The notes under the pieces were generated by a model. That model saw only the letters and a program-made list of their open reading frames with translations, was not told the origin of the DNA and made no database searches. Source: Candidatus Latescibacterota bacterium (GTDB lineage: Bacteria > Latescibacterota > UBA2968). From it: 64,000 nucleotides of DNA. The DNA is taken from assembly GCA_965222605.1 (NCBI GenBank), contig OZ244960.1:6080001-6144000 (forward strand), given 5' to 3'. Positions within the stretch are counted from its first letter, which is position 1. Every line of letters starts with the position of its first letter. The position numbers were made by a program, and so were the translations under genes. Shown piece by piece: positions 12,359 to 14,978 of this stretch.

Positions 12359-12404
12359 CAACTCGAAAACCGTTATTGTTGTTCCGGTTTTCGGTGGTAT
12401 TCCT
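12359..12404 (-). repeat. DGR template repeat (TR), 3' remnant
   Basis: Minus strand AGG AAT ACC ACC GAA AAC CGG AAC AAC AAT AAC GGT TTT CGA GTT G; AAC-rich; matches both VRs except at adenines. Confidence 0.92.
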
Positions 12405-12406
12405 GT

Positions 12407-12747
12407 GTGCGGGCACAGGCGATGCGCCGCCGCAGGTCACGCTTGAGGATTTCGTGGTCAATAGCAGGGAAGTAGCGATAGAGGTCGCAGCGCAATACAT
12501 GGCGAAAACGGTCTCGGAATGTTTCGTAGCGGGCTATGGCGCGATGGGTTCCCTTGCCCTTGCGATTGGCATAGGTATCATAAATAAAGCCGCGTTCAAA
12601 AATCGGCTCGCATACCGCGCAAAAAGCGTGATGCACCACCCGATCTCGAAAGGGCGCAGCCGAGACGATGCGGTGCTTGGGGTCGAATATCTCGATCTCG
12701 GTGTATCGCCCCGGACGGTATTGACCTGTTTTGAGTTCCCGCTCTAA
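12407..12747 (-). pseudogene. DGR reverse transcriptase, internal fragment (~113 aa)
   Basis: ELKTGQYRPG.Y..I.I.DPK.R.VSAAPFRDRVVHHA, FIYDTYANRKGKGTHRA, VLRCDLYRYFPAIDHEIL; N-terminus and the YxDD-containing half are missing. Confidence 0.92.
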
Positions 12748-12913
12748 GGGATTCCAACACGTTGAGGGCAGTACTTTGTATGCGGTCGCCCAGTAGGAAC
12801 TTCTGATTGCGGGGAAATCGCTCCAGTGTAGGCACGAGCCACAGGATGAACTGGTAATGTGCCTCCAGTGCCGGCCCAGTTTGACGTGCGTTGATCCTTG
12901 ACAGATCATTCAA
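12746..12913 (-). pseudogene. avd: DGR accessory protein Avd, N-terminal half (56 aa)
   Basis: AGGAG RBS and TTG start; GPALEAHYQFILWLVPTLERFPRNQKFLLGDRIQ..ALNVLESL; joined out of frame to the RT fragment. Confidence 0.88.
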
Positions 12914-13043
12914 AAGATGGACTCCTGATAAAACACCCCTCAAAAAAAATCGTAAAACCCCCGGGAAAACCCAAAATCAACCCCCTCAAAATCCAAAACT
13001 CTCCCTCCCCCAAAAAAGAGGTAAAGAGGTAAGGATAAAAGAG

Positions 13044-14978
13044 TTAAAAACGCCGGGCAACTCGAAAACCGTAATCGTCGTACCGGTATACGGTGGGATT
13101 CCAGAAGCGATTCGCCGAACGCAAGAGCCTCGGATAGTAGTACCACGAACCACCACGCAACACGCGTCTATCGCAATTACCAGACTCCCACGCAGACCCA
13201 TCTATAGGTGCCCCCACATAGCTGTCATTCCAACAGTCTTCCACCCATTCCCACCCATTCCCGTGCATATCGTGAACACCCCAACCATTCGCCCTGAAAC
13301 TTCCCACAGATACGGTATTCCCTCTATACACACCTTTCCGACCAGTACCGTAGGTATAATTACCATTGTAATTCGCTTGATCCGTCGATATTGTTGTACC
13401 AAAATGAAAGGGCGTCTCCGTACCCGCTCGCGCCACATACTCCCATTCCGATTCACTCAGTAAACCATACCGGTGACCTGTCTTTTGAGATAACCAACGC
13501 ACATAAGACTGTGCATCGTCCCAACTCATGCACACCACAGGATGGCTATCCGCCTGAGAATAATTAGGATTACGCCAACTTATCCCTCTTCGATTCTCCC
13601 ATTTAATGGAGGAACTATTCCAAACATAACAAGAATTTCCCGCATTGTACCCCGTATCTGACACAAAACTGGAAAACTCTCTTCGCGTCACTTCATACAC
13701 ACCCACGGCCAGAGGATACCCTATATTCACGCGATGACGAGGGCCCTCATCGTCATAACGATCTTCCTCGCTACTGGGAGAACCCATCGTGAACGATCCC
13801 GACGGCACTACCACCATCTCTGGGCATTCCGCACAGTCCTTGAATTTCCTGCCTGCGCGATGAAGCTCTGCCTCGCGCGCTGCTGACAACCGATCTTCCA
13901 GTTCCGATTGGTAATAATAGACACCCCCTATCAGCACGGTAAGCAGGCAGGCTACTGTTGCAATTAATTTCCCTTTAGGTTTCTTGGAAGATTCTGAGCG
14001 GTCATCGGTGCGCTGATGCACGGAGGGAACAGCGACTTCCTCTCGATCCTGTTTTTTTGATGGGGGAGTGGTTGGAGGCTTTCTCGGGCCGCTTCCTGTT
14101 TCTTCTCCCAGCGCAACACGCCATTCAGCGATACTTTGCGGACGATTCTCCTTATGCACCTGCAACGCCCAATCTATTGCCGATAGAAATTCGACACGCG
14201 CTTGACCCGCGCATTGCTCAGACGCTGGAATGAGCGGATCAAGGGCTACTCTGTCTGGTGCCTCATCAGGACCCTCACCGGCCAAGGCGCGATAGCACAC
14301 CGCACCCAATGCATAAATGTCTGTACCCGGTCCTTGTTCTCCCCGACTCGAATACTGCTCTATTGGCGAGTAAGGTGGTGAGATAATCGCATCAATAGAC
14401 TGGCTCCTAATACCGATCGCCTGACGCGCTGCGCCAAAGTCCAACAGCACAGGCGAATTGTCCGCATCCCGTATGATGATGTTGAGAGGCTTGATGTCAC
14501 GGTGCAAGAAATCAACCCCATGCACCTCCTCCAAACCATCCAGTATCGGATACAAAATGGCTTTGAGTTCGGCTTCACTCAGCGGCCCTCTGCTTTGCAG
14601 AAACTTCGATAAGGTCTCGCCCTCGGCATATTCCATCACGATATACGCCGTGCCATGGGTTTGAAAAAAGCGATGCACTTTAATGATGTGGCGATGATCG
14701 AACCGGGCTAAGGTGCGCGCTTCGTCCAAAAAACGATCCAATCCCCACTCAAAATCATCTCGAAACTGACTCGCTTGTGGAGCTACGCTGTTGTCGCCTG
14801 TGCGCGTGGCTATATCCGATGGCAGGTATTCCTTAATCGCAACGGCTTTGTCCAGGTTGTGGTCAAAGCCGAGGTAGGTCATGCCGAAGCCGCCAAATCC
14901 GAGCACGCGCACCAGTTCGTATTCCTGGAGCCGATGCCCCTGGGGCAGGGCATTGAGGGGGTGGTGTGCGTCGTTCAT
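13044..14978 (-). CDS. Ser/Thr kinase-TM-FGE/C-type lectin receptor, DGR target 1, intact ORF
   Basis: [106 protein letters not shown]. Confidence 0.95.
   Translation of the reverse strand: MNDAHHPLNALPQGHRLQEYELVRVLGFGGFGMTYLGFDHNLDKAVAIKEYLPSDIATRTGDNSVAPQASQFRDDFEWGLDRFLDEARTLARFDHRHIIKVHRFFQTHGTAYIVMEYAEGETLSKFLQSRGPLSEAELKAILYPILDGLEEVHGVDFLHRDIKPLNIIIRDADNSPVLLDFGAARQAIGIRSQSIDAIISPPYSPIEQYSSRGEQGPGTDIYALGAVCYRALAGEGPDEAPDRVALDPLIPASEQCAGQARVEFLSAIDWALQVHKENRPQSIAEWRVALGEETGSGPRKPPTTPPSKKQDREEVAVPSVHQRTDDRSESSKKPKGKLIATVACLLTVLIGGVYYYQSELEDRLSAAREAELHRAGRKFKDCAECPEMVVVPSGSFTMGSPSSEEDRYDDEGPRHRVNIGYPLAVGVYEVTRREFSSFVSDTGYNAGNSCYVWNSSSIKWENRRGISWRNPNYSQADSHPVVCMSWDDAQSYVRWLSQKTGHRYGLLSESEWEYVARAGTETPFHFGTTISTDQANYNGNYTYGTGRKGVYRGNTVSVGSFRANGWGVHDMHGNGWEWVEDCWNDSYVGAPIDGSAWESGNCDRRVLRGGSWYYYPRLLRSANRFWNPTVYRYDDYGFRVARRF
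13058..13103 (-). repeat. DGR variable region VR1 (portion alignable to the surviving TR)
   Basis: Versus TR 12359..12404: 8 mismatches in 46 nt, all at TR adenines. Confidence 0.92.

What the first reader, a model, noticed from the sequence alone, without database searches (positions are those of the whole stretch)
12359..13103. Hidden DGR: TR remnant matches kinase target 1 with adenine-only mismatches
Minus strand TR is AGG AAT ACC ACC GAA AAC CGG AAC AAC AAT AAC GGT TTT CGA GTT G. VR1 is TGG AAT CCC ACC GTA TAC CGG TAC GAC GAT TAC GGT TTT CGA GTT G. All 8 mismatches fall on TR adenines, mostly in AAY codons, and the 3' ends then diverge (TCCGCACG vs CCCGGCGT) as expected for IMH*/IMH. Adjacent Avd and DGR-type RT fragments complete the cassette, in the order target-avd-RT-TR. 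DGR finders that need a full RT and a long TR would probably miss it.
Basis: seen in the sequence. Interest (0 to 1): 0.88.

Follow-up and report, generated by a model that had tools for sequence, protein, structure and literature searches.

The report
Dead DGR cassette beside receptor kinase
This is the broken leftover of a diversity-generating retroelement that once rewrote the sensor tip of membrane kinase genes; two deletions destroyed its reverse transcriptase, so it is a fossil of a well-known system.

Summary
On the minus strand, 12404..12359 and 13103..13058 align without gaps. All 8 mismatches fall on template adenines (18 A in 46 nt; hypergeometric p = 1.7e-4).

Between the two lie an Avd N-terminal fragment (NCBIfam DivGenRetAVD positions 4-44 of 104) and a reverse-transcriptase (RT) fragment. 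The RT fragment matches the Bordetella phage DGR RT best (8ub7 residues 49-167 of 328, E 3e-25, against 1e-8 for a group II intron RT).

The cassette is dead, not hidden. A congener (G016) has the intact target-avd-RT-TR unit. Compared with it, the window lacks 331 bp (avd 3' part plus RT start) and 657 bp (RT from about residue 177, including IGxxxSQ and YVDD, plus the 5' half of the TR). The 6.34-Mb single-contig genome has no other RT.

Contigs from another study span both junctions. The RT fragment shows dN/dS 0.037 against G016, so the decay is recent.

This is a new but ordinary member of a known kind. Earlier notes of this scan described orphan variable regions elsewhere in this genome; this window holds the only RT and TR remains.

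The parts
13044..14978 (-). Target 1 (K1): intact 644-aa Ser/Thr protein kinase, transmembrane segment and C-terminal FGE-sulfatase (C-type-lectin fold) domain
   Evidence: Pfam Pkinase E 2e-34 (residues 20-238) and FGE-sulfatase E 6e-60 (residues 384-642). The ORF is open. The hydrophobic stretch LIATVACLLTVLIGGVYYY is read from the sequence; membrane topology is inferred.
13054..13164 (-). VR1, the variable region at the 3' end of K1. The part that still has a template partner in the window is 13058-13103.
   Evidence: The 111-nt TR of G016 matches here at 76%. Against the window's TR remnant there are 8 mismatches, all on A.
12910..13043 (-). Conserved G/T-rich spacer downstream of the VR, also present after VR2 and after VRs at 5.84 Mb
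   Evidence: Repeat families D3 and D19 and blastn hits. No inverted repeat of 7 bp or more was found here or in the intact G016 element.
12746..12868 (-). Avd N-terminal fragment, about 41 of about 104 model positions. It ends at deletion junction 1 (12747/12748).
   Evidence: NF033474 DivGenRetAVD positions 4-44 of 104, E 7e-9. PHROG 3206 'Avd protein of DGR'. 45 of 48 residues are identical to G016 Avd (printout).
12406..12747 (-). RT fragment of 114 codons, equal to G016 RT residues 63-176 and bRT residues 49-167. There are no catalytic motifs.
   Evidence: 8ub7 E 3.4e-25 against group II intron RT 1e-8. phrog_1423 E 1.9e-41. 84% nt identity to L016 10039-10381. dN/dS 0.037.
12406..12412 (-). 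Deletion junction 2, joining the RT body to the TR interior, in a short zone of imperfect microhomology
   Evidence: The two blastn alignments to G016 overlap by 7 nt here. The junction sequences are printed. Contigs bridge it in runs X1 and X4.
12359..12412 (-). TR remnant: the 3' 46-54 nt of a template of about 111 nt, rich in AAY codons
   Evidence: It aligns to G016 TR positions 55-111 and continues into the spacer, 84% over 187 nt.
12226..12358 (-). Post-TR spacer, a structured and conserved RNA-like region that normally follows the TR
   Evidence: 84% identical to G016 and also conserved in G017. RNAalifold gives 47 pairs, 3 of them with compensatory changes among only 3 sequences. No Rfam match.
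11151..12170 (-). PP2C-type protein phosphatase. The likely ATG start is at 12170, after a GGAGG; the longest ORF starts at 12245.
   Evidence: Pfam PP2C_2 E 2e-13 and SpoIIE E 2e-10. Sequence read.
9144..11154 (-). Target 2 (K2): a paralogous kinase-TM-FGE gene, apparently broken. It has a 1-base frameshift in a C5 run near 10185-10199 and an in-frame TGA at 9633-9635. VR2 lies at about 9154-9264.
   Evidence: Three consecutive ORFs and Pfam on the pieces. Sequence. VR2 against the TR remnant shows 13 mismatches on A and 2 off A. The frameshift could be an assembly error and was not checked with reads.
15014..15718 (-). FHA-domain protein upstream of K1, part of the kinase/phosphatase/FHA signalling island
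   Evidence: Pfam FHA E 1.3e-6. Homologues of the G016 island genes lie at 15734-20090.

Best explanation
The region is the inactivated core of a chromosomal diversity-generating retroelement of the target-avd-RT-TR type.

How it worked when intact:
- The TR and its structured spacer were transcribed.
- The RT-Avd complex copied the TR into cDNA, misreading adenines.
- The cDNA replaced the last ~110 nt (VR) of genes for transmembrane Ser/Thr kinases. Their outer domain is an FGE/C-type-lectin fold, so the ligand-binding surface was rewritten.
- It served the adjacent K1, K2 and several FGE paralogues elsewhere in the genome.

How it died:
- Two internal deletions at short microhomologies removed (1) the 3' two-thirds of avd plus the first ~62 RT codons, and (2) the RT from about residue 177 to its end plus the 5' half of the TR.
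- With no other RT in the genome, mutagenic homing has stopped. VR1 is frozen in an otherwise intact receptor kinase.

Shown: the anatomy, the A-specific TR/VR pattern, the deletions, the lack of any RT in the assembly and the recency of the decay. Inferred: the past mechanism (by homology to the Bordetella phage system), the membrane topology and the sensor role.
For: - A-only mismatches between TR remnant and VR1: 8 on A, 0 off A, p = 1.7e-4. VR2 has 13/2, locus B 12/2, C1 12/3, C2 9/4, D1 12/6 and D2 13/8.
- Avd and DGR-clade RT fragments are present.
- Congener G016 has the intact unit: Avd 132 aa, RT 375 aa with IGNLTSQ and YVDD. The RT aligns to 8ub7 residues 4-315 at E 7e-41 and to Pfam RVT_1 at E 9e-17. 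Four VRs checked there show 18/0, 20/1, 19/0 and 18/0 mismatches on/off A.
- The window aligns to that unit in three collinear blocks, leaving gaps of 331 and 657 bp.
- In the whole genome, phrog_1423 hits only this fragment and PF00078 hits nothing; controls were positive in 3 of 14 genomes. tblastn with the fragment hits only itself.
- The junctions are real. X1 contigs cover 12176-12454 and 12578-12837 with 0 differences. One 4,073-nt contig of X4, from another study, spans 11902-13700 with 26 substitutions and no gaps.
- The decay is recent. The RT fragment against G016 has 44.5 synonymous and 9.5 non-synonymous differences, dS 1.02, dN 0.038, dN/dS 0.037, and no internal stops.
- VR1 alone shares the remnant's derived non-A state (T in the third-from-last NNY codon, AAT/GAT). 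The other VRs of this genome and all G016 copies have C there (printout). This fits TR-to-VR1 transfer late in the element's life.
Against: - Pfam gave no significant hit for either fragment. NCBIfam named the RT fragment only as group II intron RT, far below cut-off (60.9 of 300 bits); that scan returned no DGR-RT family.
- The genome is 98.7% complete by markers, with 5.4% contamination. A plasmid or phage carrying an RT could be outside the assembly.
- The read data were contigs, not raw reads, so low-frequency VR variants cannot be excluded.
- The same metagenomes hold relatives with undeleted TR and RT: loose ends at 12406 in X1 and 12748 in X8, and X3 record 11. Intact elements therefore circulate nearby.
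- No hairpin or cruciform was found downstream of the VR, though the intact G016 element lacks one too.
Confidence: 0.9

Rival explanations
1. A working 'hidden' DGR. The TR remnant and spacer are still transcribed and are used by an RT supplied in trans (a mobile element, or a DGR outside the assembly), so the last ~46 nt of VR1 still diversify.
For: - The TR 3' end, TR-type flank and structured spacer are kept with 84% identity to the intact element.
- VR1 has no off-A mismatch.
- Relatives with intact TR and RT occur in the same metagenomes.
Against: - No RT of any kind is in the single-contig genome.
- Avd is also truncated.
- The TR has lost its 5' half and is now preceded by RT coding sequence, so the upstream TR/VR homology is gone. 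That this homology is needed to complete cDNA replacement is recalled from the Bordetella phage work and was not tested here.
- The X4 population, about 1.4% diverged, showed no difference at the VR1 positions listed. Only 40 of 314 difference rows were shown.
Confidence: 0.03
2. This is not a TR at all. The 46-nt stretch is a stray 3' fragment of a paralogous FGE target gene, and its likeness to VR1 is ordinary paralogy.
For: - The genome holds many FGE paralogues with similar tails.
- It also holds at least one scar that fuses an Avd fragment to an FGE tail, at 5.8446-5.8451 Mb.
Against: - The stretch is continuous with the TR-type flank and spacer of G016's TR, 187 nt at 84%.
- It carries the AAY-rich template composition (18 A in 46 nt).
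- It sits directly after the RT remnant.
- The real paralogue fragment C3 shows 14 on-A and 11 off-A mismatches, so no clean A bias.
Confidence: 0.03
3. Assembly artefact. The deletions arose from collapsing or mis-joining reads of co-occurring strains, and the real strain has an intact cassette.
For: The metagenomes contain related sequences that continue into an undeleted TR or RT at exactly the junction positions.
Against: - Contigs built independently from X1 bridge both junctions with 0 differences.
- A 4,073-nt contig from a different study (X4) carries both junctions with no gaps.
- X1 may be the source sample, but X4 is not listed as such.
Confidence: 0.02

Closest known systems
Bordetella phage BPP-1 DGR (bRT-Avd with TR RNA; PDB 8ub7 series)
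   Same: The RT fragment and the intact congener RT align best to this RT (E 3.4e-25 and 7e-41). There is an Avd partner, an adenine-specific TR-to-VR pattern, and a VR at the C-terminal end of a C-type-lectin-fold domain.
   Different: The element here is chromosomal, not phage-borne. Its targets are membrane kinases rather than a tail fibre. The gene order is target-avd-RT-TR with a long structured spacer after the TR. In the window the RT, Avd and TR are all truncated. No cruciform was detected after the VR.
Chromosomal DGRs with FGE-sulfatase/CLec targets carrying kinase or NTPase domains (Wu et al. 2018, PMC5758913, architecture b12; Schillinger & Zingler 2012, PMC3575424; Dore et al. 2024, PMC10907252)
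   Same: The target type is the same: an FGE-type CLec domain at the C-terminus of a protein-kinase protein. There are multiple targets per element, and the neighbours include trypsin-like protease genes. I read only passages of these papers.
   Different: These papers describe intact or mostly intact elements. Here the core is deleted, and the lineage is an uncultured group.
Truncated or inactivated DGR RTs noted in surveys (Schillinger et al. 2012, PMC3521204; Dore et al. 2024)
   Same: An RT gene cut short while the TR/VR adenine pattern is still readable, interpreted as very recent inactivation. Passages read.
   Different: Those cases were transposon or MITE insertions, nonsense mutations or frameshifts. 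Here there are two internal microhomology deletions that also remove half of avd and half of the TR.
Treponema denticola TvpA-type FGE-fold variable proteins
   Same: An FGE-sulfatase fold used as a DGR variable scaffold. This is recalled, and is also named in earlier notes of this scan.
   Different: TvpA is a lipoprotein without a kinase domain. I made no structural comparison here.

Membership tests
Diversity-generating retroelement (DGR) | RT of the DGR clade | tested here: met
   The fragment's best solved-structure hit is 8ub7 at E 3.4e-25, against 1e-8 for a group II intron RT and about 2e-4 for retron-type RTs. phrog_1423 E 1.9e-41. It is 93% identical to the full DGR RT of G016.
Diversity-generating retroelement (DGR) | Intact, catalytically competent RT (motif [LIV]GxxxSQ and YxDD) | tested here: not met
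   The window keeps only the equivalent of G016 RT residues 63-176. IGNLTSQ and YVDD lie in the deleted 657 bp. No other RT is in the genome.
Diversity-generating retroelement (DGR) | TR/VR pair differing almost only at template adenines | tested here: met
   8 mismatches on A and 0 off A over 46 nt, p = 1.7e-4. Only the 3' 46-54 nt of the TR survive.
Diversity-generating retroelement (DGR) | Accessory protein Avd | tested here: not met
   Only model positions 4-44 of 104 are present, at 35.9 bits against a cut-off of 80. The rest was lost in the 331-bp deletion. It is recognisable as Avd but not intact.
Diversity-generating retroelement (DGR) | VR at the C-terminal end of a C-type-lectin/FGE-fold target | tested here: met
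   FGE-sulfatase domain at residues 384-642 of 644, with the VR in the last ~37 codons.
Diversity-generating retroelement (DGR) | Distinct 3' flanks of VR and TR (IMH / IMH*) | tested here: met
   A VR-type flank is shared by the VR-like tails of this genome and of G016. A TR-type flank is shared by the window, G016 and G017. Their function is not testable here.
Diversity-generating retroelement (DGR) | Ongoing diversification in the population | tested here: inconclusive
   Only assembled contigs were available. At the VR1 positions listed, X4 shows no difference from the window, and 274 of 314 difference rows were not shown.

The most novel reading that the evidence does not exclude
DGR loss in this genus is recurrent, and possibly favoured: a 'diversify, then freeze' pattern for receptor kinases.

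Three congeners have lost the core by three different routes:
- This genome: two microhomology deletions.
- G008: RT cut after about 98 codons, with the TR gone.
- G017: an FGE gene running straight into a TR-type flank and spacer, as expected from VR x TR recombination that excises avd-RT.

Only 1 of 20 congeners keeps an intact element. Meanwhile 13 of 20 keep VR-like FGE tails, and K1 stays intact. If loss were selected, to lock in a useful sensor repertoire or to stop self-mutagenesis, it would say something about how long hypermutation is worth keeping.
Probability: 0.15. Interest if true: 0.5.

Novelty: new member of a known kind. Interest (0 to 1): 0.3.

Why it matters
It closes a small loop in this genome. 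Orphan variable regions noted elsewhere (2.70, 5.84 and 1.44 Mb) have no template, and this window holds the only surviving RT and TR pieces. Those pieces explain where the variable regions came from.

It is also a clean, datable example of how a DGR dies: microhomology deletions, with the RT fragment still showing dN/dS 0.037. Frozen VRs can persist in intact receptor-kinase genes after that.

In practice, A-biased TR/VR remnants without a full RT should be annotated as decayed DGRs, not as active hypermutation loci. Nothing here changes what is known about the DGR mechanism.

Tried and rejected
- Pfam scans of the two fragments found nothing significant. The only hit was bAvd at E 0.021.
- The NCBIfam scan returned no DGR-RT family. 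It gave only group II intron RT, far below cut-off.
- Rfam found no match in 11800-13300.
- A search for an inverted repeat (7 bp or more, within 30 nt) downstream of VR1, VR2 and a G016 VR found none. One search was a parameter error on my side and was re-sent.
- The Avd-fragment dN/dS could not be computed: synonymous sites were saturated and the script stopped with a math error. Only the 45 of 48 identical residues are reported.
- No RNA holder was listed among the sequencing runs, so nothing can be said on expression.
- Only contigs, not raw reads, were available. The proposed test of variation confined to A positions within the strain could not really be done.
- I considered a group II intron or retron origin for the RT and rejected it.
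- I made no structure prediction, complex prediction or large protein-database search, because the congener comparison answered the question.
- Searches for prior description: 'diversity-generating retroelement' with 'Latescibacter' returned one unrelated paper. Searches with kinase/FGE and with truncated/nonfunctional returned the surveys cited. Supplements were not seen, so this element or its relatives might be listed in the survey tables.
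Full report
**Observation**

All features lie on the minus strand. The gene at 14978..13044 encodes a 644-aa protein with an N-terminal protein-kinase domain (Pfam Pkinase E 2e-34), a hydrophobic segment, and a C-terminal FGE-sulfatase / C-type-lectin-fold domain (E 6e-60, residues 384-642). I call this gene K1.

Its last codons (13103..13058) align without gaps to 12404..12359. A formal count gives 8 mismatches, all at template adenines. There are 18 A among the 46 positions and no mismatch at the other 28, so the hypergeometric p is 1.7e-4.

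A third copy sits at the end of a second kinase-FGE gene, K2 (VR2, about 9154-9264).

**The pieces in between**

The frame 12943..12746 matches NCBIfam DivGenRetAVD at model positions 4-44 of 104 (E 7e-9, below the 80-bit cut-off because it is a fragment). It also matches the PHROG 'Avd protein of DGR'.

The frame 12747..12373 matches PHROG 1423 'Reverse transcriptase' at E 1.9e-41. Among solved structures its best hit is chain 8ub7_A, residues 49-167 of 328, at E 3.4e-25. A group II intron RT scores 1e-8 and retron-type RTs about 2e-4. That 8ub7 is the Bordetella phage bRT-Avd complex is my recollection; the table says only 'Reverse transcriptase'.

Pfam itself saw neither fragment.

**What is missing**

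A search of 40 relatives with the RT fragment found a 93%-identical match inside a 387-codon open frame in congener G016, and a 52-residue piece in G008.

The G016 locus (L016) carries these parts:
- three tandem kinase-FGE genes;
- avd (132 aa; Pfam bAvd E 2e-18);
- an RT of 375 aa (Pfam RVT_1 E 9e-17) that aligns to 8ub7 over residues 4-315 and has the IGNLTSQ and YVDD motifs;
- a TR of about 111 nt encoding an Asn-rich tail;
- a conserved spacer;
- a fourth target further on.

The four G016 VRs I checked differ from its TR by 18/0, 20/1, 19/0 and 18/0 mismatches on/off adenine. A DNA search found about ten VR-like copies in that genome. G016 is therefore a bona fide, probably active, multi-target DGR.

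The window aligns to it in three collinear blocks:

| Window | L016 | Content |
|---|---|---|
| 13109-12747 | 9326-9707 | VR end, intergenic region, avd start |
| 12748-12406 | 10039-10381 | RT, 84% identity |
| 12412-12226 | 11039-11224 | TR 3' part and spacer, 84% identity |

Relative to the intact unit, the window therefore lacks two segments:
- 331 bp, covering the avd 3' two-thirds and the first ~62 RT codons;
- 657 bp, covering the RT from about residue 177 to its end plus the 5' ~54 nt of the TR.

The second junction falls in a 7-nt zone where both flanks are alike. The first falls at a few shared bases, which suggests microhomology-mediated deletion. That mechanism is an inference.

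**No replacement RT**

The genome is one contig of 6.34 Mb, 98.7% complete by markers.
- phrog_1423 hits only this fragment.
- Pfam RVT_1 hits nothing at E <= 0.01, while the control genomes respond.
- tblastn with the fragment finds only itself.

Avd N-terminal fragments also occur at 2.6987 Mb and 5.8446 Mb, each just after an FGE gene. FGE paralogues with variable tails lie at 1.443, 1.446, 2.698, 5.843 and 5.844 Mb and at 0.152 Mb. Their A-bias against the remnant fades with distance: B 12/2, C1 12/3, C2 9/4, D1 12/6, D2 13/8. This is what older, no longer refreshed VRs would show.

Earlier notes of this scan had already described the 5.84-Mb array as orphaned VRs whose RT and template are gone. 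This window holds the only RT and TR remains in the genome.

**Is it real, and how old?**

Contigs built from public runs bridge both junctions:
- In X1, possibly the source sample, records cover 12176-12454 and 12578-12837 with 0 differences.
- In X4, a different study, one 4,073-nt contig spans 11902-13700 with 26 substitutions and no gaps.

The deletions are therefore not an assembly artefact, and they are shared by a population about 1.4% diverged.

The same metagenomes also contain relatives whose sequence continues into an undeleted TR (loose end at 12406 in X1) or an undeleted RT (loose end at 12748 in X8; X3 record 11). Intact elements persist in co-occurring kin.

Against G016 the RT fragment has 44.5 synonymous and 9.5 non-synonymous differences (dS 1.02, dN 0.038, dN/dS 0.037) and no internal stop. 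Almost all of its history was therefore spent under purifying selection, and the inactivation is recent relative to the split from the G016 element.

One further detail fits late activity on the adjacent target. The remnant has T where G016's TR and all other VRs of both genomes have C (third-from-last NNY codon), and only VR1 shares that T (printout).

**How it most likely worked**

This is inferred from homology to the Bordetella phage system and is not tested here. TR plus spacer RNA was copied by RT-Avd with adenine misincorporation. The cDNA then replaced the VR at the tip of the FGE/C-type-lectin fold. From the kinase-TM-FGE order, that fold should face outward as the ligand-binding part of a receptor Ser/Thr kinase.

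The neighbours are a PP2C phosphatase, FHA proteins and two protease-FHA proteins. The same set flanks the G016 cassette, in a rearranged order. This points to a phospho-signalling island with a hypervariable sensor.

Kinase-FGE DGR targets are already in the literature (passages read): Wu et al. 2018 (architecture b12), Schillinger & Zingler 2012, and Dore et al. 2024. Truncated DGR RTs with a still-readable A pattern are also described: Schillinger et al. 2012, and Dore et al. 2024 on degraded DGR components.

**Verdict**

This is a recently dead DGR, a new member of a known kind in an uncultured lineage, and interest is modest.

The most novel reading left open is recurrent, possibly favoured, loss of the element in this genus by different routes:
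- G008: RT cut after about 98 codons, with Avd intact.
- G017: an FGE gene running directly into a TR-type flank and spacer, as VR x TR recombination would produce, with no RT or Avd found there.

Limits:
- Only contigs, not raw reads, could be laid.
- K2's lesions are unverified.
- Supplements of the survey papers were not available.

Noticed in passing
L020 (G017:C1:1178890-1182128), about 1490-2675, minus strand: In congener G017, an intact 358-aa FGE gene ends in a TR-like tail (..GFRVARTLVGSNGQH*). It is followed directly by the TR-type flank and the conserved spacer. No RT or Avd was found in that genome with the queries used. This looks like VR x TR recombination that excised avd-RT, a third and different route of DGR loss in the genus.
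   Followed up: partly
L017 (G008:C2:3192000-3208000), 7579-8257, minus strand: Congener G008 keeps an intact Avd (127 aa; bAvd E 1e-21). Its RT stops after about 98 homologous codons and runs into another FGE gene, and no TR was found. The target there has a different N-terminus, with dockerin-like repeats and no kinase. This decay event is independent of the one in the window.
   Followed up: partly
window 12226-12358 (minus); L016 11096-11224; L020 about 1490-1620: The spacer after the TR is strongly conserved in three genomes. It folds into a consensus of 47 pairs with 3 compensatory pairs, including a long terminal hairpin (GGTGTCCCTT..AAGGGACACC). It has no Rfam match. It is probably the structured DGR RNA spacer, and it is kept even in the two dead elements.
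   Followed up: partly
window 9144-11154 (minus): The second kinase-FGE gene (K2) is split into three ORFs by a 1-base shift in a C5 run (about 10185-10199) and an in-frame TGA (9633-9635). It also carries a TPR-like insert between the TM segment and the FGE domain that K1 lacks. It is either a pseudogene or, for the homopolymer shift, an assembly error.
   Followed up: no
window 12529-12577 (RT fragment), run X4: Of the 5 X4 substitutions listed inside the dead RT fragment, 4 fall on third codon positions by my count. This is odd for a pseudogene. It rests on one depth-2 contig and 5 sites, so it could be chance, or recombination with an intact relative.
   Followed up: no
genome 2698653-2699012 and 5844599-5845078 (outside the window): There are two more Avd N-terminal fragments, each directly after an FGE target. 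One is fused in frame to an FGE tail. This suggests that target duplications carried the start of avd along with them. The 5.84-Mb case was already described in earlier notes of this scan.
   Followed up: partly
window 1220-1511 / 2809-3100, 3121-3169, 37434-37554, 56621-56768: There are repeated GAT..GATGGC..GG..GATTT units (EF-hand or dockerin-like calcium-binding repeats) in several genes, and a 292-nt duplication at 95% identity.
   Followed up: no
window 17842-17976 (minus-strand genes 17322-20090): Two protease-FHA proteins with Ala/Lys/Glu-rich coiled-coil repeats are homologous (50-57% aa) to the pair that follows the TR in G016. The signalling island is conserved but rearranged between the two genomes.
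   Followed up: partly
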